A DNA stretch of 64,000 bases from a candidate division FCPU426 bacterium (lineage in GTDB: Bacteria > Oederibacteriota > Muellerivitia > Muellerivitales > Muellerivitaceae). A model generated the notes under the pieces. That model saw nothing but the letters and a program-made list of their open reading frames with translations, made no database searches and was not told the origin of the DNA. A program made the translations under genes and the position numbers. How positions within the stretch are numbered: the first letter of the stretch is position 1; each line of letters begins with the position of its first letter. The stretch is from positions 346-64,345 of the forward strand of contig PLFD01000055.1 of assembly GCA_003136635.1 (NCBI GenBank). The letters are read 5' to 3'. Of this stretch, positions 1 to 9,237 are shown piece by piece.

Positions 1-510
1 GTTGCTCTGATTGGCGCAGGGGTCTTGAAAATATTTAAAAGCCCCTTATTAAAACTCCTTTCTTTCATTAACGAACAATTGAAGGTTATGGTCAGGCCAA
101 GTCCAACGGTACATTGCGAACAAGATGTTACCGATATTCAACAAAGCTTTTGGTTTTATTTATTTGCCGGTGAAATAGGGAAAAGAGTGTTTGTCCAAAT
201 AAGAGGAAGATTTCATATAACAATAAGTGGTTGGTGGGAGAATCAGCCGAGGTTTATCAAGGTGATTTTCAAACCCACCCAAAACATTGGAACTGGCTAT
301 TATGAAAATTACGGGGAGTTTAGAGAGAACGACGATATTCCTATGGATAGAATGACGCTTTCAGAAGGCCGCACCTACAATTTACACATTGATGTTGATA
401 TCAAAATGGGCCACGAAATTGAGAGGAAACCCCTAAAAGGTGAGATTATTCTCGTTGATCAATTTGGAGGGGAATTCAGTTTAGGGATTCGGACATTTCG
501 CGCTCAATGA
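1..510 (+). CDS. hypothetical protein, 3' part (gene probably starts upstream of the window)
   Basis: The frame of ORF 25..510 stays open back to nt 1 (VALIGAGV-LKIF...). No motif recognised. It converges on the minus-strand PIN module. Confidence 0.35.
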   Translation, partial: VALIGAGVLKIFKSPLLKLLSFINEQLKVMVRPSPTVHCEQDVTDIQQSFWFYLFAGEIGKRVFVQIRGRFHITISGWWENQPRFIKVIFKPTQNIGTGYYENYGEFRENDDIPMDRMTLSEGRTYNLHIDVDIKMGHEIERKPLKGEIILVDQFGGEFSLGIRTFRAQ

Positions 511-565
511 AAGGTAAGATCTGTAAACCCGCAAGAAGCAAAGGGCAAGGTTTATTTGTTCTGCA

Positions 566-1006
566 TTAAGAGATATCAGTACTGGGGCGGAGCAAAATGT
601 TTTTTCCAGCCAGTTCTTTTTTAATTTTTTTAATTAAGCCGTTATCGTCCGTGTAAATCGTTACTTGTTCAAAATTTGGAAATAGTTGTGTTAGTTTTTG
701 TTTGACAGATACTTCGATGAGCATAAGCGTTGCGGCAAGAATAGAAACGTCACCAAATCCAGTCATGTTATAAAATGAGCGGCCACCATACTTGTTTAGG
801 ATATCGCTGTAGTGTTTTAGATAGATTGCCTCGTCGAAATTGCCGGATTTGATAATTTTTGAAATGCGAGCTGGAAGACCTTTTCCGTGTATTATTTGTG
901 TCATTTCAACTTCCTCTTCAACATCAGGTGCCAAGTAATAGTTATTTTGTAGAGCAAAATTCTTGGTGAAAACGTAATGAACTCCGTTTGTATCAATTAA
1001 GTTCAT
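566..1006 (-). CDS. PIN-domain nuclease (toxin-like)
   Basis: 146 aa. LIDTN (Asp5), EEEVE (aa 30-34), GDVSILAA (Asp86) and TDDNG (Asp120/121) fit the spacing of the four acidic PIN positions. ATGA start/stop overlap with the upstream gene. Confidence 0.6.
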   Translation of the reverse strand: MNLIDTNGVHYVFTKNFALQNNYYLAPDVEEEVEMTQIIHGKGLPARISKIIKSGNFDEAIYLKHYSDILNKYGGRSFYNMTGFGDVSILAATLMLIEVSVKQKLTQLFPNFEQVTIYTDDNGLIKKIKKELAGKNILLRPSTDIS

Positions 1007-2280
1007 ATGCCAAGCTCGTTACGATATTTGCGATATCCTTTTTTATTGGATGCTCCCCATATCAAATGTTGTGCCTGAACACTCGACAGCGATCCACTTC
1101 GAATTCCAATATTGATGGCTTGAAATGTTATTCGGCCACAAAATTTTTCTACCGACGTTGAAACTCGTGGAGAATTCATGTGTGTCTTAGTCTTCTTGGG
1201 AACATATACTGGTGGTTTTAATGCATCGTATTCTTGCTTTGAAATGATTCCTCTCATCCGAAGGGTAGTGACCAGCGCCAATGGGGACACTTTAAATTTA
1301 TTTGAAAGATCGTCTCTCATATTAGAGGTGATACTCTGCTCACGAAGAGGTTCAACTTCGGTTGTTGGAATGAGAAGTTCCGTTGTAATTGAATGTAACT
1401 TTGCTGATATACCCTTTGCTTTCAAAATCTTTGCTTTAAAATTTTTATCAAGAAAATAGTCGTATTGTTCAAGCCCGATAATTGCAATTAGATAAATCAA
1501 TGTATATATCTGTCTACTTTCAACTTCGTCCGGATTCACTTCACTTGGAAGGAAAACAAAAGGCACTTGGTCATCTCTAATCACGAAACCACTTGTGCTT
1601 TTATAAACGTCGTTTTGTACAACCTGCCAAGCTGGCAGCAATTTATTTGTCAGGACACCCCTGGAGACGTTTATGTTTTTATCTTCTGTCTGTGCGATGA
1701 AATATTTCAAAGCCCGTCCCTTGCTGGTAAAACTCCACAACGTCGAACGATCGATTTTAAAGTGGGTGAGTATATGATTAACTGCTTGGCTAGTCTGCAT
1801 GCCTTGCAATGATCCGCAGAAAGAGTTGTTTGAAAAAGTAACTGAACTCGTTAGAAAGTTTTGTTGGCGAATTAACCGATCAATAATACGTTTTGAAGTT
1901 ACGTTACCGGTTCCTTTTCGCTTAGCAATTAATTTGGAAGAGACTTTATATTTACGTTGCTTATCGATTTGAGCTATTTGATTATCAAGATTGGTACGGT
2001 TTAGAAGGAACATCTGCCAAGGGATTAGGATCTTTTCGCTTTCTGCCTGTAGATCCATAAAATCAATATGACCGTTAGCGAATGCCTCGCTGAAAATGGG
2101 ACGATCTATCAATTTTTCTTCAGGATACATGCCAAGTACGCGTTCAATGACATTGTCTTCGATTTCTGTTGAGTTAGTGCCGTTGGCCTTGATCCACATA
2201 GACTGTTCTGACCCGCCCTCGAAAACTGGTTTGCCTGTAAGGTTATAATAACCCGAAAGGTAGATTGGAAATGGCAACAA
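1003..2280 (-). CDS. large partner protein of the PIN gene; C-terminal half resembles an ImmA/IrrE (COG2856) domain lacking the HEXXH metal site
   Basis: 425-aa ORF with a TTG start and no clear RBS, so the true start is uncertain. The ordered blocks IYTLIYLIAII / SITTELLIP / KFKVSPLALVTTLRMRGII parallel the FTLxHExxH / FAxELLMP / FxVSxxxxxxRL blocks of ImmA/IrrE peptidases. No HExxH occurs anywhere in the protein. Confidence 0.45.
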   Translation of the reverse strand: MLPFPIYLSGYYNLTGKPVFEGGSEQSMWIKANGTNSTEIEDNVIERVLGMYPEEKLIDRPIFSEAFANGHIDFMDLQAESEKILIPWQMFLLNRTNLDNQIAQIDKQRKYKVSSKLIAKRKGTGNVTSKRIIDRLIRQQNFLTSSVTFSNNSFCGSLQGMQTSQAVNHILTHFKIDRSTLWSFTSKGRALKYFIAQTEDKNINVSRGVLTNKLLPAWQVVQNDVYKSTSGFVIRDDQVPFVFLPSEVNPDEVESRQIYTLIYLIAIIGLEQYDYFLDKNFKAKILKAKGISAKLHSITTELLIPTTEVEPLREQSITSNMRDDLSNKFKVSPLALVTTLRMRGIISKQEYDALKPPVYVPKKTKTHMNSPRVSTSVEKFCGRITFQAINIGIRSGSLSSVQAQHLIWGASNKKGYRKYRNELGI

Positions 2281-2468
2281 AGGGGAAGCTTTATTACAAC
2301 TCTGAATATATGAAAGCGAGAATTGTGATTGTTTACTATGAAATTGAGGAAATCGTAAATATTAGAGTTAGAGTTGAATGTAAAACATAAAGGTTCCGGC
2401 CAACACTCAACACTTTAAAAAATAAAGGGTGCCTGGTTCCTTTTGGCTTTAGAACATTTCAGTTTTCA

Positions 2469-2654
2469 TTTCTTCGCCCGTTCTAAAAATACCCTAGGCG
2501 TAACAATGGACAGGCGTTCCAAACCAACTGTCTTCAGCTTTTCTTTCGTGATGGAAAGAAGATCCAAATCGCCGGTCACCAGGAAGTCCGCGGAGACGGT
2601 TTTGGCCGAACACAAAGGTTCCAGGCCAACATTCAACACTTTAGGCCAGACCCC
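2469..2654 (-). pseudogene. remnant of a PIN-family toxin gene (C-terminal ~60 codons only)
   Basis: The minus-strand frame reads KVLNVGLEPLCSAKTVSADFLVTGDLDLLSITKEKLKTVGLERLSIVTPRVFLERAKK-stop. aDxLVTGDxDLL is the conserved C-terminal block of a large PIN toxin family. The frame is closed upstream by a stop at 2655-2657 and the N-terminal half is absent. Confidence 0.45.
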
Positions 2655-2684
2655 TCAATCCCCGCGCCCGGAAATAGGGGCCTG

Positions 2685-2905
2685 GCTTACAAGTTACATT
2701 TTAATACTGATCGGAGTTCTATGAGCTGGACGGACGATATTCACGAAGAACTTCACGAAATGGACGCCCAAGGCTTAAGGCGCCGTCTTCGCGCGGTAGA
2801 TCTTTTAGGCGGCATGAGAGCTTCAGTTGAAAATAAGGACTGTATTCTTTTTTGCACCAATAATTACCTGGGGCTGGCCGATCACCCTCATGTTTTAGAA
2901 CGATC
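2685..2905 (+). repeat. left copy of a 221-nt direct repeat (bioF leader plus first 61 codons)
   Basis: Gap-free collinear match to 4531..4751 with 22 mismatches by hand alignment. The 59-nt block 2826..2884 is identical. Confidence 0.9.
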
Positions 2906-2927
2906 ATCCAAGACAATTTTGCATTGA
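2721..2927 (+). pseudogene. truncated bioF 5' fragment (68 codons)
   Basis: MSWTDDIHEELHEMDAQGLRRRLRAVDLLGGMRASVENKDCILFCTNNYLGLADHPHVLERS matches the N-terminus of the full bioF at 4567 (2 aa differences). It then diverges and stops. Confidence 0.85.
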
Positions 2928-2990
2928 AGGCAAAGCCTGACCAGGTTGATATTGAGCCTTTTTCAAGTATATCAATTTATACTGTTATTT

Positions 2991-3030
2991 ATGTATAACC
3001 GTGTATAGATGTGTATAATTGTGTATAAAT
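2991..3030. repeat. four tandem 10-bp units ATGTATAACC GTGTATAGAT GTGTATAATT GTGTATAAAT
   Basis: Read directly. Head-to-tail units with one helical turn of periodicity, 33 nt upstream of the ATPase start. A TATAAT hexamer lies at 3014-3019 inside unit 3. Confidence 0.8.
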
Positions 3031-3062
3031 TTTCACGAAATAAATATTAACGGAAAACCAAA

Positions 3063-4289
3063 ATGGACAAAATCAAAAACCCGTTCTCGCCGGGCGCGGG
3101 ATCACCGCCTCCGGAGCTTGCCGGTCGTGACGGCATTTTGGAAAGCGCAAGGGTGCTCCTGGGCCGTGTGAAAGAAAAACGGTCAGAAAAGAGCATCCTC
3201 CTGACGGGTCTTCGCGGGGTAGGCAAGACGGTCCTATTGAACGAAATTGAACGGATAGCCGCGGATCAAGGTTATCGTACCATTCAGATCGAGGCGCATG
3301 AGGACAAACCCCTCGCGGCGCTCTTGGTGCCGCATCTTCGCCGTTTGCTATATGACTTGGACCGGATCAAGGGCGTGAGTGAGAAAGTCCGGCATGGTAT
3401 TGGCGTATTACGAAGTTTTATTGGAACGTTGAAGTTAACCTATGGCGATTATGAGGTGGGTATCGACATAGAACCGGAAAAAGGGTCCGCCGACAGCGGT
3501 GATTTGGAGGCCGACTTGCCCAATCTTTTCGCGGCGGTTGCGGAAGCGGCAGAAGACCGGTCAACGGCGATCGCGGTACTGGTTGATGAAATCCAATATT
3601 TCAATTCATCCGAACTGAGCGCGCTGATTATGGCCATGCACCGGATGCAGCAACGCCGGCTCCCTCTGGTCTTGATCGGGGCCGGGTTGCCGATCCTGCC
3701 TGGATTGGCTGGGGAATCGAAGTCTTACGCCGAAAGGCTCTTCAGTTTTCCCGATATCGGACCCTTGTCGGCAAAAGATGCCGCCAAGGCGCTCCAGGAT
3801 CCGGTGAAAGCCGAGGGAGTGGAATTTAAGCGTGATGCTTTGGGTGAAATCTGCGAATTGACGAAAGGCTATCCCTATTTCATCCAGGAGTGGGGCTACC
3901 AAGCGTGGAATCATGCCGAGTCCTCGCCCATAATTCTTAAGGACATCAAGGAAACCACGCAAGTCGTCGCGGACCGCCTGGATAAAAATTTTTTCCGTGT
4001 GCGTTTTGACCGCCTTAGGCCGCGGGAAAAGGATTTTCTCCGCGCGATGGCCGATATTGGCCCGGGTCCGTACCGGACGGGTGATATTGCGGATGCCCTC
4101 GGTGAAAAAATCAATACGTTAGGCCCTATGCGGGCAAGCCTTATTAAAAAAGGGATGATTTACAGCCCGTCCCATGGGGATTTGGCTTTCACGGTGCCTC
4201 TCTTTGACGAATTCATGCGCCGGGCTATTCCGAAGTTTCAGACAAAAACAAAAAAGAAATCAAACCTAAAACCAAAACGTAATTTATAG
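3063..4289 (+). CDS. AAA-type ATP-binding protein (archaeal-ATPase/ORC-like family) with a winged-helix-like C-terminus
   Basis: 408 aa. N-terminal NPFSPGAGSPPPELAGRD, Walker A GLRGVGKT, Walker B VLVDEIQ, and a C-terminal FLRAMADIG...TGDIADALG helix-turn-helix-like segment. GC-rich relative to its neighbours. Confidence 0.7.
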   Translation: MDKIKNPFSPGAGSPPPELAGRDGILESARVLLGRVKEKRSEKSILLTGLRGVGKTVLLNEIERIAADQGYRTIQIEAHEDKPLAALLVPHLRRLLYDLDRIKGVSEKVRHGIGVLRSFIGTLKLTYGDYEVGIDIEPEKGSADSGDLEADLPNLFAAVAEAAEDRSTAIAVLVDEIQYFNSSELSALIMAMHRMQQRRLPLVLIGAGLPILPGLAGESKSYAERLFSFPDIGPLSAKDAAKALQDPVKAEGVEFKRDALGEICELTKGYPYFIQEWGYQAWNHAESSPIILKDIKETTQVVADRLDKNFFRVRFDRLRPREKDFLRAMADIGPGPYRTGDIADALGEKINTLGPMRASLIKKGMIYSPSHGDLAFTVPLFDEFMRRAIPKFQTKTKKKSNLKPKRNL

Positions 4290-4477
4290 CATAGGGTTAA
4301 AATCGACGGAAAAGCCGGGCGGTATCAAATGGAATTGTTGGGAACAGTATGGGTACGGTACCGGATTCGAAAAATTCTTCAGAAGCTCAAGAAGGAGGGG
4401 CGAATCCGGGTGGTGCAAATGGGCTCCAAAGGAAAATGGCGAAAAATATAGGGTTTTAATTAGGTACTATCCCGGCC

Positions 4478-4511
4478 AACTAGGTATTTTGAGGGGTGAT
4501 AATACCTAGTT
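4478..4511. repeat. perfect 11-bp inverted repeat AACTAGGTATT-N12-AATACCTAGTT
   Basis: Read directly. It lies 20 nt upstream of the right bioF repeat, and no T-run follows it. Confidence 0.8.
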
Positions 4512-4530
4512 GAATAGAACCCAGAGTTTT

Positions 4531-4751
4531 GCTTACAGATTAAATTTTAATACTGATCGGGGTTATATGAGTTGGACGGACGATATTCATGAAGAACTTC
4601 ACGAAATGGAGGCCCAGGGTTTAAGGCGCCGTCTTCGTACAGTAGACCTATTGGGCGGTATGCGGGCTTCGGTTGAAAATAAGGACTGTATTCTTTTTTG
4701 CACCAATAATTACCTGGGGCTGGCCGATCATCCGCATGTTTTAGAACGATC
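4531..4751 (+). repeat. right copy of the 221-nt bioF 5' direct repeat
   Basis: See 2685..2905. The identical core is 4672..4730. Confidence 0.9.
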
Positions 4752-5721
4752 TCAAAAAGCGCTGTTTCGCTATGGCGCCAGTGCTCAGGCCTCCCGTCTC
4801 GTTTCGGGTCATTTGCCCATTCATCAACAATTGGAAGAAAAGACAGCGGCTTTTAAAGGATCTGAGGCCTGTTTGGCTTTTCCAACGGGCTATATGGCCA
4901 ATCTGGCGGCGGTTTCAGCCCTGGTTGATGAGAAAGACGTTATTCTTTGTGATCGTCTCAATCACGCCAGCTTGATTGACGCTTGTCGTATGTCCAAAGC
5001 CAAGTTTATGGTTTATGAACATCTGAACCTTGAAGACCTTAAAGCACAGTTAGAAAAGACGGCCAAATACCGCAGACGGTTAGTGGTGACAGATGGATTG
5101 TTCAGTATGGATGGCGATCTGGTGCCTTTATTAAAGCTAATGGAATTGGCCCATGAATATGACGCGTTGGTCATGGTGGATGACGCCCATGGTACGGGTG
5201 TTTTGGGTCCGACGGGACAGGGGATCATCCACCACTTTCCCTTAAAGCATTTTCCAGCGGTCGTGGTGGGTACTTACAGCAAGGCAATAGGAAGCATGGG
5301 CGGGTTCGTTTGCGGTTCCCAATTGTTTATCGAATATCTTTTAAACAAAGCCCGTACGTTTATTTACACCACGGGATTGCCGCCGTCAGTTTGCGGGGCT
5401 TCGCTGGGGGCTTTGGAAGTGATGGAACAGGAAACCAGCCGGGTGGATAAGCTTTGGGATAATGCCAAAAAGATTCGCGTTGGTTTAAAGGCGCTGGGTT
5501 ATGACATACCCAGAGGGGCCGGGCCGATATTGCCTGTAATGGTTGGCGAAAATGAAGAAGCCCTGCGTATGTCAAAAAGGCTTTTAGAAGAGGGCATCCT
5601 TATCGTTGCCATTCGTCCGCCCACAGTCCCCAAAGGCACAGCCCGTTTACGGCTTTCCGTATCGGCGGCTCATACGGATGAGGATATTGTTAAGCTTTTG
5701 GATGCGTTTAAGAAGCTATAA
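4567..5721 (+). CDS. bioF: 8-amino-7-oxononanoate synthase
   Basis: Class II aminotransferase fold signatures NNYLGL and GTYSKAIGSMGG (PLP lysine), with the right length and neighbouring bioD/bioA. Start placed at ATG 4567 (MSWTDD), shared with the duplicated copy, instead of the TTG at 4510. Confidence 0.9.
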   Translation: MSWTDDIHEELHEMEAQGLRRRLRTVDLLGGMRASVENKDCILFCTNNYLGLADHPHVLERSQKALFRYGASAQASRLVSGHLPIHQQLEEKTAAFKGSEACLAFPTGYMANLAAVSALVDEKDVILCDRLNHASLIDACRMSKAKFMVYEHLNLEDLKAQLEKTAKYRRRLVVTDGLFSMDGDLVPLLKLMELAHEYDALVMVDDAHGTGVLGPTGQGIIHHFPLKHFPAVVVGTYSKAIGSMGGFVCGSQLFIEYLLNKARTFIYTTGLPPSVCGASLGALEVMEQETSRVDKLWDNAKKIRVGLKALGYDIPRGAGPILPVMVGENEEALRMSKRLLEEGILIVAIRPPTVPKGTARLRLSVSAAHTDEDIVKLLDAFKKL

Positions 5722-6028: not shown

Positions 6029-6924
<896 letters not shown>

Positions 6925-7351: not shown

Positions 7352-8575
7352 ATGAAGCGTTGGAGTATCGCCCTATTTTTAATTCTTTTAACAACGGGAG
7401 TGGCTTTTGCCGCTCCCAAAACTGCGGCTGAGTATTTAGCGGCGGCCGCTCAACTCTATAGCGCTAAAGATTATCAAGGCGCGGCTTACAGTTATGAAGC
7501 GGGGTTGGTATTGGACCCTAATAATGCCGGTGGTTATCAGGGTCTGGGTGATTGTTACTATTATTTGGGACGTCAAACCGACGCGATGATGGCCTATCAA
7601 AAGTCTTTGGCTTTGAATCCCAGTAATCCCAAGTTGACCGATTTTATTAAAACTTTTAAGCCGCAGGACGCCGCAGGCGCGAGTGATGGAACTACAATAA
7701 CTATGTTTTCCCAGATGCAAGCCACACCGGTGATTGACTACAGCAATACGAATTCAGAACCATCAACTGTTAAGTCAAAACCGGAAGTCAAATTCGCGAT
7801 CGATAAAAGTACGTGGATTCGTTTTTCTGCCGGCTATGACTTTGCCCTTTTGAGTGATTTTAACAACGGAGTTAACGCTCAGCAGACGCTATTGGACTCC
7901 AATCCCAATTCCACAACAGCTACGACTACCAGTACGGGTAGCAATGGGTTTCGCGCCGGGGGTGAATTTGGTGTGGATTTGGATCAAGGAAATGGTTTTT
8001 CCATTAGTTTTGAAAATGTCTGGACCCAGGGCATTAGCTATAACAATAACGAAACACAAACGCTGGTTGACAGCTCGGGTACTACGGTTCTTGCCCCTCA
8101 AAGCGAGTCTTTTCAACCGAGTTTATTCAACGTTTCGCTGAACTATTACGCCTATCTTCCGGCTGGCAAAGGCTCGAGAGCTTATTTCACCGTAGGCGGC
8201 GGTTATTATCAGGCGACGGTTGGTTTTGTGGGTGTGGACCCGACTCTTTCGCCAACTAATGAAAATGGTACTTTTACAGACAGCGCTTTTGGATGGACAT
8301 TCGGCTTTGGAGATACTTTAGCGGTTGGAAATTCTTTCGGACTCACCCTTTCAGCGCGGGGACGAATTGTCGCGTTTAATCAAATGACAACGACCTCGGT
8401 TAACAATTCAACCAATTCAGGACCCTATGCCATTGTGATTGATAATTCGACTTCTACCACCGCCGGGACGATTAATGTCACTCCCGTTTCAAATATAAAC
8501 GCCACGAGTTATCGCTACGCGGTGCTGGATTACACGGGTTTCGACGCGGATTTATCGTTTGCTTTTTATTTTTGA
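7352..8575 (+). CDS. secreted TPR-repeat protein fused to a predicted outer-membrane beta-barrel
   Basis: Signal peptide (LLTTGVAFA-AP), two or three TPR-like repeats, then a Thr/Ser/Asn/Gly-rich alternating region ending in FAFYF (OMP-type C-terminal Phe). Confidence 0.55.
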   Translation: MKRWSIALFLILLTTGVAFAAPKTAAEYLAAAAQLYSAKDYQGAAYSYEAGLVLDPNNAGGYQGLGDCYYYLGRQTDAMMAYQKSLALNPSNPKLTDFIKTFKPQDAAGASDGTTITMFSQMQATPVIDYSNTNSEPSTVKSKPEVKFAIDKSTWIRFSAGYDFALLSDFNNGVNAQQTLLDSNPNSTTATTTSTGSNGFRAGGEFGVDLDQGNGFSISFENVWTQGISYNNNETQTLVDSSGTTVLAPQSESFQPSLFNVSLNYYAYLPAGKGSRAYFTVGGGYYQATVGFVGVDPTLSPTNENGTFTDSAFGWTFGFGDTLAVGNSFGLTLSARGRIVAFNQMTTTSVNNSTNSGPYAIVIDNSTSTTAGTINVTPVSNINATSYRYAVLDYTGFDADLSFAFYF

Positions 8576-8589
8576 AATTGGAGAAATAG

Positions 8590-9237
8590 ATGCCCATTAG
8601 AAAGCGAAACGCATTTGGAATCGGTTTGATTCTTGTGTTATCTGTTTGCCTCAGTTCCTGCGGTAAAAAAGAAAATATCGATTGGGTTACCTATCACAGT
8701 TTGGACAAGCTTTTTACAATCGATTATCCGCCCACTTGGGAACATTCTTTGGACGGCCATGTTTTTAATATTACTCCACCCGATAAAACGGGGTTGGTGG
8801 CCGTTTCGGGTTATATAGATCCCGGAACCACCTTCGACGAAAAGGCGTTTAAAGCCATGGTCATGCTGGATTTTGTGGAATGCCGTGTGAAAGAACCGTT
8901 TAAAGCCGTAACCGGACACGAATGGATAGGTGAGGACGCGCTTTATGAAAGAACTATTAACGGTCAAAAATTCATTTATCTATTCCGGGTGGCGCATCGC
9001 GGACAAGTGGGGGCTTTTATCGCGGTGAGCGATTTGGAAATTCACATGAAAGCCAACATGGGGAACTATAAGCAAATCATGGATTCACTGGTTATTTTGG
9101 ATGATCCGACAAAACCGGAAGACCTGAGCAGGACAACGCCTGTGGTAGAAAAAATAAAACCATGGCAGGAAAAGTTGATCGATTGGATCCGGTCAACCGA
9201 GAAAAAAGAAGACAAAAAAAGTTATTACAGTAATTAA
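8590..9237 (+). CDS. lipoprotein of unknown function
   Basis: Lipobox LSSC-GKK after a hydrophobic leader. Lys/Glu-rich tail. Confidence 0.55.
   Translation: MPIRKRNAFGIGLILVLSVCLSSCGKKENIDWVTYHSLDKLFTIDYPPTWEHSLDGHVFNITPPDKTGLVAVSGYIDPGTTFDEKAFKAMVMLDFVECRVKEPFKAVTGHEWIGEDALYERTINGQKFIYLFRVAHRGQVGAFIAVSDLEIHMKANMGNYKQIMDSLVILDDPTKPEDLSRTTPVVEKIKPWQEKLIDWIRSTEKKEDKKSYYSN

What the first reader, a model, noticed from the sequence alone, without database searches (positions are those of the whole stretch)
2685..4751. Diverged direct duplication of the bioF 5' end brackets a GC-rich single-gene ATPase cassette
nt 2685-2905 and 4531-4751 are collinear 221-nt direct repeats. My hand alignment gives 22 mismatches and no gaps (about 90% identity). 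The repeats cover 36 nt of leader plus the first 61 codons of bioF. The left copy runs into unrelated sequence and stops after 68 codons, while the right copy continues as full-length bioF. Between them lie only a 4x10-bp tandem array, one AAA/ORC-like ATPase gene and an 11-bp inverted repeat. This is the footprint expected when an integrative element inserts into the 5' end of a gene and brings its own replacement 5' end. However, no integrase or recombinase lies between the repeats or anywhere in the window. The cassette could therefore be a decayed island, a recombinase-less hitchhiker mobilised in trans, or one unit of a tandem array at a bioF hot spot.
Basis: partly seen in the sequence, partly recalled or inferred. 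Interest (0 to 1): 0.7.

Follow-up and report, generated by a model that had tools for sequence, protein, structure and literature searches.

The report
Leftover bioF start beside imported ATPase
A foreign one-gene ATPase cassette sits in front of the biotin gene bioF next to a leftover copy of that gene's start, and related peat-bog contigs suggest the block spreads by ordinary homologous recombination, using the leftover as a homology arm, not by an integrase.

Summary
The 221-nt direct repeat (2685-2905 / 4531-4751; 22 mismatches, no gaps) is real and is not an assembly artefact. It brackets a GC-rich, stand-alone ORC/Cdc6-like AAA_16 ATPase gene.

The organism is an uncultured FCPU426 bacterium from peat. 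About 35 contigs from many samples carry the same arrangement. Sister species do not. Two contigs of the same population (L139, L143) are empty sites: 266-aa gene, 614-aa gene, leader, then intact bioF.

The left copy is the resident gene's own 5' stub. In L023 it matches the first 185 nt of L139's intact bioF at 185/185, after 3173 flank bases with one mismatch. What follows the stub is the cassette plus a complete, different bioF allele, not only a replacement 5' end.

Flank-swap breakpoints fall at the stub's edges. The identical tract between the two copies shifts from genome to genome, so there is no fixed att core. No recombinase lies in the window or in the 6.9 kb upstream.

Best reading (0.6): one illegitimate founding junction, then spread by homologous recombination with the stub as left arm. 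A decayed integrase island (CIME-like) remains possible (0.2). This resembles the known "insertion with long target duplication". Interest is moderate.

The parts
1..2684 (.). Right part of an accessory ('W') island: end of a 189-aa gene (1-510), an overlapping minus-strand pair of 146 aa and 398/425 aa (566-2280), and a PIN-like gene remnant (2466-2639, minus) lying inside a multicopy ~250-nt repeat (2398-2644).
   Evidence: ORFs. No Pfam, NCBIfam or PADLOC hits for the pair. Upstream on L002 lie a UvrD-like helicase plus DUF2290, matching PADLOC models PDLC03002 (E 3e-241) and PDLC02998, and a ParB_N protein. This flank is replaced by a 266-aa + 614-aa gene flank in other contigs of the population. 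Logan depth is 3-4x over 2398-2644, with many alternative continuations.
2685..2905 (+). Left copy (stub): 36-nt leader plus the first 61 codons (+2 nt) of a bioF allele (haplotype A). It ends as a 68-codon ORF (2721-2927). It is a remnant of a resident bioF and serves as the left homology arm.
   Evidence: Stub haplotype E is identical (185/185) to the 5' end of the intact bioF in empty-site contigs L139 and L143. One contig (L128) carries a 25-nt frameshifting deletion in the stub, so the ORF is dispensable.
2906..2991 (+). Founding junction and 86 nt of spacer of unknown origin. The junction GAACGATC|ATCCAAG is the same in every occupied contig.
   Evidence: the sequence ATCCAAGACAATTTTGCATTGAAGG follows the stub in 33 loci.
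2992..3030 (+). 10-bp x 3.9 tandem array (rTGTATAa units) in the ATPase promoter region. Probably an operator for the ATPase's own DNA-binding tail (inferred).
   Evidence: TRF result. Comparable phased (G)TATAA-type repeats precede homologues in unrelated hosts, including high-GC ones.
3063..4289 (+). 408-aa stand-alone AAA+ ATPase (AAA_16, ORC/Cdc6- and Arch_ATPase-like). Walker A is GLRGVGKT and Walker B is VLVDEIQ. The C-terminus is predicted as helix-helix-helix-strand-strand.
   Evidence: Pfam AAA_16 at 60 bits against a 32.6-bit cut-off. More than 8000 relatives at 73-81% identity across phyla. Present on 121 plasmids, one weak phage hit (40% identity), none in IMG/VR. AF2 model is poor (pLDDT 56); top Foldseek hits are RuvB, ORC/Cdc6 and SSO1545.
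4290..4366 (+). 3' flank shared by all copies of the cassette. Position 4366 is the right breakpoint of the shared block.
   Evidence: A 9-bp inverted repeat (4361-4369 / 4401-4409) straddles the breakpoint.
4367..4530 (+). Lineage-specific 'tail' upstream of the working bioF (W type). It is unrelated to the roughly 160-nt V-type tail found with the other bioF allele. It contains a 12-bp perfect inverted repeat (4477-4512), a possible operator, and the end of a 40-codon winged-helix-like ORF remnant (4329-4451).
   Evidence: Alignment. W tail always occurs with allele B and V tail with allele C. Inverted repeat. Weak BLACT_WH hit, E 0.002.
4531..4751 (+). Right copy: leader plus the first 61 codons of the working bioF (haplotype B).
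4567..5721 (+). Intact bioF (8-amino-7-oxononanoate synthase), allele B. It arrived or recombined as a whole gene together with the cassette.
   Evidence: Pfam. Alleles B and C differ by 43 nt in a patchy pattern. Both are about 88% identical after +185 to the allele of the empty-site contigs.
6029..6924 (+). Second variable slot (an orphan RHH/VapB-like gene at 6029-6244; other lineages carry a VapB-like/PIN/Phd cluster here), followed by bioD (6241-6924).

Best explanation
The repeat is a recombination scar, not the att sites of an integrase element.

The cassette is an accessory block consisting of its own operator-like 10-bp repeats, a stand-alone ORC-like ATPase gene and a short 3' flank. 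At one past event it became joined, by an illegitimate junction, to position +185 of a bioF gene (inferred). A complete second bioF with its own leader lay downstream of the cassette. The truncated first 185 nt plus leader remained as a stub.

Since then the structure stub - cassette - full bioF has spread and reshuffled among peat FCPU426 lineages by ordinary homologous recombination. The stub pairs with the 5' end of a recipient's bioF and forms the left arm. bioF and the downstream genes form the right arm. The recipient's own gene start then becomes, wholly or partly, the new stub, and the donor's bioF replaces the recipient's.

This model explains four things. Stubs differ almost only at synonymous sites. 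The identical tract between the copies differs from genome to genome. Left flanks switch exactly at the stub's edges. No recombinase is needed.

The ATPase is cargo. Its likely role is a self-regulated accessory or defence-type NTPase, but that function is inferred, not shown.
For: 1. Empty sites exist. Sister species with bioF at 91-94% aa identity have SDR-KAS-VIT1-bioF-bioD with the same downstream synteny, no ATPase and no second copy. Within the population, L139 and L143 have 266-aa gene, 614-aa gene, leader and intact bioF.

2. The stub is the resident gene's start. L139 1-3358 matches L023 1-3358 with 1 mismatch, ending exactly at +185, and stub E matches L139/L143 bioF at 185/185.

3. 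The incoming block carries a whole bioF. After +185, the L139 allele is 87.9-88.0% identical to alleles C and B, while the flanks are 99.97-100% identical.

4. Breakpoints lie at the stub's edges. Five filled contigs (L021, L136, L138, L140, L141) are 0/3173 different from L139 upstream but 14/185 different in the stub. L005 and L007 (614 flank) join window-type sequence at 2717, 4 nt before the ATG.

5. There is no fixed core. The identical tracts sit at different places in the A-B, A-C, D-C and E-C pairs.

6. The population is recombining. Cassette SNPs are mosaic, with at most 14 differences in 1461 nt. L019 is window-like (99.83%) from -1437 up to the cassette, but 96% in bioF and 92.7% downstream.

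7. Variation looks like functional alleles. 23 of 28 variable sites among the five 5' haplotypes are codon position 3, including in the stub-only pair A-D (12 of 15).

8. The stub ORF is dispensable: L128 has a 25-nt deletion.

9. There is no recombinase in the window, in the 6.9 kb upstream, or in any contig.

10. The ATPase travels as cargo of many vehicles: an integrase island, an hsdS|hsdR slot, plasmids and a Vibrio integron cassette. Eleven other contexts lack unique bracketing repeats.
Against: - The founding event is inferred. No donor with the cassette lying upstream of an undisrupted single bioF was found.
- The two 'tails' between the cassette and bioF (W and V types) are unrelated although both start at 4366. 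That needs an extra rearrangement I cannot reconstruct.
- No stub that is a D/E mosaic was seen. Observed crossovers therefore cluster at the two ends of the stub, which could also suit a site-specific process.
- The left end of the W island was not reached, because contigs end 6.9 kb upstream of the window. An integrase there cannot be excluded.
- The two empty-site contigs are metagenome assemblies. They do come from two samples, differ by 39 SNPs in the flank, and share the same bioF allele.
Confidence: 0.6

Rival explanations
1. Decayed site-specific integrative element (CIME-like), possibly one unit of a tandem accretion at a bioF 5' attachment site. An integrase-carrying island once integrated here with an attP that mimics the bioF start, then lost its integrase. 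Alternatively the integrase lies beyond the contig end or acts in trans.
For: - The junction at +185 is constant in all occupied sites.
- In the window the repeat has a 59-nt perfect core, with 141 nt of diverged sequence on one side and 21 nt on the other.
- Both window copies carry the same derived leader with an ATG start. This differs from the native TATAAT...GTG leader of sister species, as if both were element-borne arms.
- The upstream region is a stack of accessory modules.
- The same ATPase family is cargo of a tyrosine-integrase island (L108) and of an integron cassette (L133).
- Observed flank switches cluster at the two ends of the repeat.
- CIMEs and accretion are established phenomena (PMC5704250).
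Against: - No recombinase in the window, in the 6.9 kb upstream, or in about 45 related contigs.
- No third bioF 5' copy on any contig.
- The perfect core is not conserved: in other genomes the identical tract lies elsewhere.
- Empty and filled genomes with identical flanks differ in the whole bioF allele, not by a clean insertion.
- The empty-site genomes carry the same 'derived' leader next to the 614-aa gene. That leader is therefore simply the clade's native leader.
Confidence: 0.2
2. The filled arrangement is ancestral in this clade. The empty contigs arose secondarily by deletion through recombination between the two copies.
For: Direct repeats of 221 nt with identical tracts of 38-92 nt would allow such deletions. 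All 28 contigs found through the two common bioF alleles are filled.
Against: A deletion would leave a stub/right-copy hybrid followed by the C or B allele. Instead, L139 and L143 carry a different allele, about 12% diverged after +185. Sister species are all empty.
Confidence: 0.07
3. The ATPase cassette is itself a one-gene mobile element. [quoted passage not shown]
For: The cassette is extremely conserved and self-contained, carries its own repeat-bearing control region, and occurs in many unrelated genomic contexts. Earlier unverified notes from this scan report a same-family ATPase bracketed by a 66-bp tRNA-Leu duplication, and similar scars around other ATPase cassettes. Restriction-modification units show recombinase-free insertion with long target duplication (PMC2853133).
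Against: Eleven other contexts of this family that I examined have no unique bracketing repeat. Here the duplication is explained by allele replacement. The protein has no nuclease or recombinase domain. All occupied sites in the population share a single junction, which points to a single origin.
Confidence: 0.05
4. Assembly artefact, or a simple in-place tandem duplication that then decayed.
For: Repeats with a 59-nt identical core can mislead short-k assemblers. Logan unitigs do break at the core.
Against: Many independent assemblies, including k141 contigs, span both copies. The core unitig has about twice the flanking depth. Divergence is 88% at third codon positions, which in-place decay would not give. 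The insert is foreign in composition.
Confidence: 0.02

Closest known systems
'Insertion with long target duplication' of restriction-modification gene complexes (Nobusato et al. 2000, cited as ref. 37 in Furuta, Abe & Kobayashi, Nucleic Acids Res 2010, PMC2853133)
   Same: An accessory, defence-type gene unit with no mobility gene. It is flanked by long direct repeats (more than 30 bp) that align with a single copy in a related genome lacking the insert. The insert is far below 20 kb. The phenomenon is seen mostly in recombination-proficient populations.
   Different: - The cargo is a single ATPase gene, not an R-M pair.
- The repeat is 221 nt and 10% diverged, whereas the published cases are near-identical.
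- The repeat is the 5' end plus leader of a biosynthetic gene.
- The downstream copy belongs to a whole foreign allele, so the duplication is maintained and re-created by homologous recombination, not made at each insertion.
Cis-mobilisable elements (CIMEs) and tandem accretion of integrative elements (Pavlovic et al. 2004; Bellanger et al. 2011; reviewed in Guedon et al. 2017, PMC5704250)
   Same: A short cargo segment between direct repeats that include a gene end, no integrase, and a position next to other accessory modules.
   Different: No related integrase-bearing element, no conserved crossover core and no third att copy were found. Empty and filled sites differ by an allele replacement, not by a clean insertion.
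Displaced gene ends ('orphan' modules) at rhs, CDI and T6SS effector loci; and homology-facilitated illegitimate recombination in naturally transformable bacteria (de Vries & Wackernagel 2002).
   Same: An incoming allele recombines through the conserved part of a gene and pushes the resident gene end aside as a leftover fragment. One homologous anchor plus one illegitimate joint can insert foreign DNA.
   Different: Those loci displace 3' ends that encode toxin tips with immunity genes. Here a 5' end of a housekeeping enzyme gene is displaced, and the cargo is unrelated to the gene.
Arch_ATPase / ORC-Cdc6-like AAA+ proteins (Pfam AAA_16 PF13191, ATPase_2 PF01637; structures 2qby, 1fnn, 2fna)
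   Same: A P-loop AAA+ core with Walker A and B motifs. Pfam AAA_16 scores above its threshold. Foldseek top hits include ORC/Cdc6 and SSO1545.
   Different: No PDB relative by sequence. The model is poor, with TM-scores of 0.2-0.3. The protein is bacterial, stand-alone, 73-81% conserved across phyla and carried on mobile DNA. There is no evidence that it initiates replication.

Membership tests
Site-specific integrative element (tyrosine or serine recombinase island) | A recombinase gene inside or next to the element | tested here: not met
   None among the ORFs of the window, of the 6.9 kb further upstream (L002), or of about 45 related contigs. The far left end of the W island was not reached.
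Site-specific integrative element (tyrosine or serine recombinase island) | A conserved identical core (crossover site) shared by attL and attR in every occupied site | tested here: not met
   The longest identical tracts lie at +105..163 (A-B), +138..184 (A-C), +15..52 (D-C) and +24..115 (E-C).
Site-specific integrative element (tyrosine or serine recombinase island) | The empty site differs from the occupied site by the element only (a clean insertion) | tested here: not met
   L139 and L143 (empty) match filled contigs in the flank at 99.97-100%, but their bioF after +185 is about 88% identical to that of filled contigs.
Site-specific integrative element (tyrosine or serine recombinase island) | An excised circular form or a reconstituted attB in reads | not testable with these tools
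   Only Logan contigs (k=31 unitigs) were available, and they cannot phase across the 59-nt core.
CIME / tandem accretion | A related integrase-bearing element, or a further att copy, at the same target | tested here: not met
   No third bioF 5' copy and no integrase on any contig.
Insertion with long target duplication (Furuta et al. 2010 criteria) | Direct repeats over 30 bp flanking the insert that align with a single copy in a genome without the insert | tested here: met
   221-nt repeats. A single copy is present in L139 and L143 and in sister species.
Insertion with long target duplication (Furuta et al. 2010 criteria) | No mobility gene in the insert, and an insert shorter than 20 kb | tested here: met
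   The 1625-nt insert holds one ATPase gene.
Insertion with long target duplication (Furuta et al. 2010 criteria) | Cargo is a restriction-modification system | tested here: not met
   The cargo is an AAA_16 ATPase. The rearrangement type matches, but the cargo class does not.
AAA_16 / ORC-Cdc6-like AAA+ ATPase | P-loop core with Walker A and B motifs, and a Pfam AAA_16 score above the gathering threshold | tested here: met
   60 bits against a 32.6-bit cut-off. GLRGVGKT and VLVDEIQ are invariant in the family alignment.
AAA_16 / ORC-Cdc6-like AAA+ ATPase | A C-terminal winged-helix DNA-binding domain | tested here: inconclusive
   The AF2 C-terminal half has pLDDT below 50. The secondary-structure order H320-332, H339-346, H355-362, E366-368, E373-375 fits a winged helix. 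Foldseek TM-scores are only 0.2-0.3.
Known anti-phage defence system (PADLOC-DB) | A significant match to a model of a described system | tested here: not met
   Only a weak mad8 hit, E 6.5e-5 at 20.6 bits. The NCBIfam DS41_1_antiphage hit scores 19 bits against a 370-bit cut-off.
Integron gene cassette | An attC site at the cassette end | tested here: not met
   No attC-like repeat flanks the window's cassette. A 50%-identical homologue in Vibrio sp. HDW18 does lie between ~125-nt VCR-like repeats.

The most novel reading that the evidence does not exclude
The ORC-like ATPase with its phased 10-bp repeats would be a minimal, recombinase-free selfish cassette that engineers its own spread. It would land at the start or end of conserved genes and create or exploit long duplications of the target. 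Those duplications would then serve as portable homology arms for recombination into naive genomes. That would make it a new class of one-gene mobile element, shared with other defence-type ATPase cassettes that earlier notes of this scan report as bracketed by duplicated gene ends.
Probability: 0.06. Interest if true: 0.8.

Novelty: new member of a known kind. Interest (0 to 1): 0.45.

Why it matters
This locus is a well-resolved natural example of how an accessory, probably defence-type gene can spread through an uncultured bacterial population without any integrase or transposase. Filled sites, empty sites and recombinants are all present in public peat metagenomes.

A leftover gene start acts as a built-in homology arm, and each transfer re-samples that leftover from the recipient's working gene. 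Genome annotators should therefore not read every gene-end duplication around a small island as an att site.

The work also flags a very large, unusually conserved family of stand-alone ORC-like ATPases. Members are 73-81% identical across phyla, occur on plasmids, in integron cassettes and in restriction-system slots, and carry their own operator-like repeats. Their function is still untested.

Tried and rejected
The window's own genome could therefore not be searched for a second cassette copy, an integrase, or the missing VIT1-KAS-SDR genes.
The empty sites rest on two assembled contigs only.
- One look-up was wasted on a mis-trimmed ParB protein. The corrected look-up found only the same contig, so the W island could not be extended.

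**Searches that found little**
- The single metagenome scan, using a degenerate bioF 5' pattern, returned only 4 contigs. None had a third copy or a new flank.
- IMG/VR holds no relative of the ATPase. The phage collection has one weak hit.
- No solved structure matches by sequence.
- The AF2 model from a 14-sequence, low-diversity alignment was poor (pLDDT 56). Fold matches therefore support only a general AAA+/ORC-like core.
- The consensus promoter and terminator scan gave nothing useful. There are no Rfam families or tRNAs in 1-9000/12000.

**Ideas considered and dropped**
- The stub as a selected micro-protein: rejected because of the 25-nt frameshifting deletion in L128 and the variable ORF starts of 68, 88 and 115 aa.
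- The 59-nt core as an att core: rejected.
- Type A as a copy that travels with the cassette: rejected, because D and E stubs sit beside the same cassette.
- A step in B-versus-C divergence at the repeat end: not seen, the divergence is patchy.
- The 266-aa and 614-aa genes as ancestral neighbours in sister species: not found there.
Full report
**1.

Positions 2685-2905 and 4531-4751 are a 221-nt ungapped direct repeat, 90% identical and spaced 1846 nt. Of the 22 mismatches, 5 lie in the 36-nt leader and 17 in the first 61 codons. Fifteen of those 17 are at third codon positions, and only two amino acids change. The longest identical run is 59 nt. A 53-nt part of the repeat occurs twice in the window, against zero expected.

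The left copy ends as a 68-codon ORF. The right copy is the start of an intact 384-aa bioF. Between them lie:
- a 10-bp x 3.9 tandem array at 2992-3030;
- a 408-aa AAA_16 ATPase gene at 3063-4289, 53% GC against 43.8% for the window;
- a perfect 12-bp inverted repeat at 4477-4512.

No tRNA and no Rfam family is nearby. I scanned most ORFs of 180 aa or more in the window. The rest of the window encodes biotin, chemotaxis, flagellar, Sec and other core functions, and no recombinase.

**2. It is not an assembly artefact**

The identical ATPase protein is encoded on 18 contigs. The window itself is part of a 155.6-kb ENA scaffold (L001), which ends 4.1 kb upstream of the window. In total about 35 contigs from many ENA and JGI peat samples carry the two-copy arrangement. 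These include k141 MEGAHIT contigs.

Logan contigs of four runs from four studies tell the same story. The 59-nt core is a separate unitig at about double depth, and one 1847-nt unitig joins the two cores.

**3. Organism and relatives**

The closest named genomes are MAGs of candidate division FCPU426 and 'Firestonebacteria'.
- Ten GTDB species with bioF at 76-91% aa identity have no ATPase within 8 kb and no second bioF 5' copy.
- Closer sister lineages (bioF 91-94% aa) have SDR - ketoacyl synthase - VIT1(-) - bioF - bioD - TPR - ... - bioA. Downstream synteny is the same as in the window.
- Their native bioF leader (TATAAT ... GTG start) differs from the ATG leader of both window copies.

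**4. The cassette**

The ATPase belongs to a very large family. More than 8000 hits were scored, and the best are 73-81% identical across Planctomycetota, Syntrophus, Kiritimatiellia, Nitrospirales and Elusimicrobia.

It is always a stand-alone gene, found in varied settings:
- inside a tyrosine-integrase island (L108);
- between a carotenoid gene and lacI (L114);
- in the hsdS|hsdR slot of a type I restriction operon (L115);
- on 121 plasmids, including plasmids of Legionella, Protochlamydia and Polaromonas;
- in Vibrio sp. HDW18, as a cassette between ~125-nt VCR-like integron repeats.

It is essentially absent from phages, with one weak hit, and from IMG/VR.

Every copy brings an AT-rich upstream region with phased (G)TATAA-type or subfamily-specific repeats, even in high-GC hosts. 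I read this as an operator for the protein's own C-terminal DNA-binding domain. That is an inference.

- None of the eleven other contexts has a unique bracketing repeat.
- Known defence models match only weakly.
- No PDB relative is found by sequence.
- A poor AF2 model (pLDDT 56) resembles RuvB, ORC/Cdc6 and SSO1545.

**5. Population structure of the locus**

The 185-nt bioF start occurs as five haplotypes.
- B and C are the working (right) copies.
- A, D and E are left copies.
- 23 of the 28 variable sites are third codon positions.
- All haplotypes are about equally distant from each other (13-17 differences), except C-E with 7. All are 18-38 differences from the sister species.

The left flank is one of two types. 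One is the 'W' island: ParB_N, a UvrD-like helicase plus DUF2290, an unknown gene pair and PIN remnants. The other is a 266-aa plus 614-aa gene pair. Flank type, stub haplotype and right-copy allele occur in several combinations.

The cassette (2906-4366) differs by at most 14 in 1461 nt between contigs, and its SNPs are mosaic. Contig L019 is 99.83% identical to the window from -1437 to 4366. Its cassette SNPs become the other lineage's type from about 3140 onwards. Its bioF is 96% identical and the downstream genes 92.7%.

After 4366 the two lineages carry unrelated 'tails' of about 160 nt, up to roughly 24 nt before the ATG. Each tail is strictly linked to its own bioF allele.

**6. Empty sites inside the population**

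The look-up of the 266-aa flank protein gave 16 contigs, of which 10 were shown. Eight are filled. Two, L139 and L143, have 266-aa gene - 614-aa gene - leader - intact bioF, with no stub and no ATPase. They come from different JGI samples.

- L139 positions 1-3358 equal L023 (filled) with one mismatch, and the match ends exactly at +185 of bioF.
- Stub haplotype E is 185/185 identical to the start of the intact gene in L139 and L143.
- After +185, the L139 bioF is only 87.9-88.0% identical to alleles C and B. Divergence rises from 2-5 per 100 nt at the gene ends to 14-19 per 100 nt in the middle.
- L139 and L143 differ at 39 flank positions but share the same bioF allele (99.6%). They are therefore two strains, not one artefact.

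Five other filled contigs are identical to L139 over all 3173 upstream bases yet differ at 14 of 185 stub positions, carrying haplotype D. L005 and L007 have the 614 flank and join window-type sequence at 2717, 4 nt before the ATG.

**7. Reading**

The left copy is the resident gene's own start. What came in is the cassette together with a complete bioF of another allele. The switches of flank and of haplotype fall at the two edges of the stub. The identical tract between the copies lies at a different place in each genome type.

This is the pattern expected if the arrangement stub - cassette - bioF moves between lineages by homologous recombination. The left crossover would lie anywhere in the roughly 221 nt of stub homology, and the right crossover in bioF or beyond.

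- A crossover at the right end of the stub leaves the recipient's allele as the stub (haplotype E in L023 and L007).
- A crossover at the left end keeps the donor's stub (D in L021; A in L005).

This accounts for the synonymous-only divergence of a non-functional fragment. Stubs are repeatedly re-sampled from working alleles. Contig L128 shows that the stub ORF is dispensable, because it carries a 25-nt frameshifting deletion.

All occupied sites share the junction GAACGATC|ATCCAAG. The founding join therefore happened once. It was probably an illegitimate joint next to a homologous anchor, but that step is inferred.

**8. Rivals**

- **Decayed integrase island or CIME in a tandem array.** This stays possible. 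The left end of the W island was not reached, and observed crossovers cluster at the stub ends. Against it stand the missing recombinase, the missing third copy, the shifting identical tract and the whole-allele difference between empty and filled sites.
- **Deletion origin of the empty sites.** This does not fit their distinct bioF allele.
- **A self-mobilising ATPase cassette.** This is not supported by the eleven other contexts. Earlier unverified notes of this scan do report similar scars around this and other ATPase cassettes.

**9. Comparison with the known**

The rearrangement meets the published criteria for 'insertion with long target duplication', apart from the cargo class (PMC2853133). 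It differs in that the repeats are diverged, because the downstream copy belongs to an imported allele.

It resembles CIMEs only superficially (PMC5704250). It also parallels displaced gene ends at rhs and CDI loci, and homology-facilitated illegitimate recombination. Those two comparisons rest on my own knowledge and were not checked here.

**10. Limits**

- The metagenome scan returned only four contigs.

**Verdict**

The mechanism, however, is most likely recombination through a leftover gene start and not an integrative element carrying a replacement 5' end. The feature is a new member of a known kind, of moderate interest (0.45).

Noticed in passing
window 2398-2644 (also 2384-2417 and 2611-2643; L002 3945-3972 minus strand; L021 1076-1098): A segment of about 250 nt holding the PIN-like gene remnant has 3-4x the neighbouring depth in Logan contigs and many alternative continuations at 2608 and 2644-2647. 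Its 23-nt motif GGTTCCAGGCCAACATTCAACAC (peptide LNVGLEPL on the minus strand) recurs at module boundaries: between ParB_N and the helicase gene, and between the 266-aa and 614-aa genes. It may be a multicopy decayed toxin gene or a small repeat element.
   Followed up: partly
L002 4053-6845 (upstream of the window; the 189-aa gene that follows ends at window 510): A 709-aa UvrD-like helicase plus a 220-aa DUF2290 protein match the paired PADLOC models PDLC03002 (E 3e-241) and PDLC02998 (E 2e-34). This is a candidate defence pair inside the island that abuts the stub.
   Followed up: partly
window 566-2280 (minus strand): An overlapping gene pair of 146 aa and 398/425 aa has no hit in Pfam, NCBIfam or PADLOC. 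It is AT-rich (36-39% GC) and travels with the W island.
   Followed up: partly
window 6029-6244, compared with L019 7200-8164: A second variable slot lies between bioF and bioD. The window has an orphan RHH/VapB-like gene whose stop overlaps the bioD start. Other lineages carry a VapB-like + PIN + Phd/YefM cluster there, and sister species have nothing.
   Followed up: partly
L139 3174-4328 compared with L019 6001-7155: bioF itself is strongly mosaic in this population. Divergence between alleles is 2-5 per 100 nt at both gene ends and 14-19 per 100 nt in the middle. Alleles B and C differ in patches (10 differences in codons 100-133, 2 in the next 300 nt).
   Followed up: partly
L119 4799-7843, L120, L121; absent from the window and all related contigs: In sister species bioF is preceded by SDR - ketoacyl synthase - VIT1. 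These genes were not found on any contig of the window's clade, so the whole upstream synteny is broken at bioF.
   Followed up: partly
L133 3269-4884 (Vibrio sp. HDW18, NZ_CP049914.1): A 50%-identical homologue of the ATPase lies between two ~125-nt repeats that recur about ten times in 8 kb (VCR/attC-like). It therefore appears to be a gene cassette of a sedentary integron array, next to an annotated abortive-infection gene.
   Followed up: no
window 4361-4369 / 4401-4409 and 4329-4451: A perfect 9-bp inverted repeat straddles the 4366 breakpoint where the two lineages' tails diverge. The 40-codon ORF across it looks like the C-terminal winged helix of some other, lost gene (weak BLACT_WH hit).
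   Followed up: no
L114 about 4840-4920: In a high-GC genome the ATPase's AT-rich control region is preceded by about ten tandem copies of GATCGCCC.
   Followed up: no
L117 2649-2709 / 7931-7990 and 4294-4353 / 8777-8836 (Protochlamydia plasmid pPNK): Two pairs of ~60-nt direct repeats (92% and 88% identical) bracket the ATPase homologue together with a RelE/HTH toxin-antitoxin pair, at 4.5-5.3 kb spacing. I did not examine whether they are plasmid-wide repeats.
   Followed up: no
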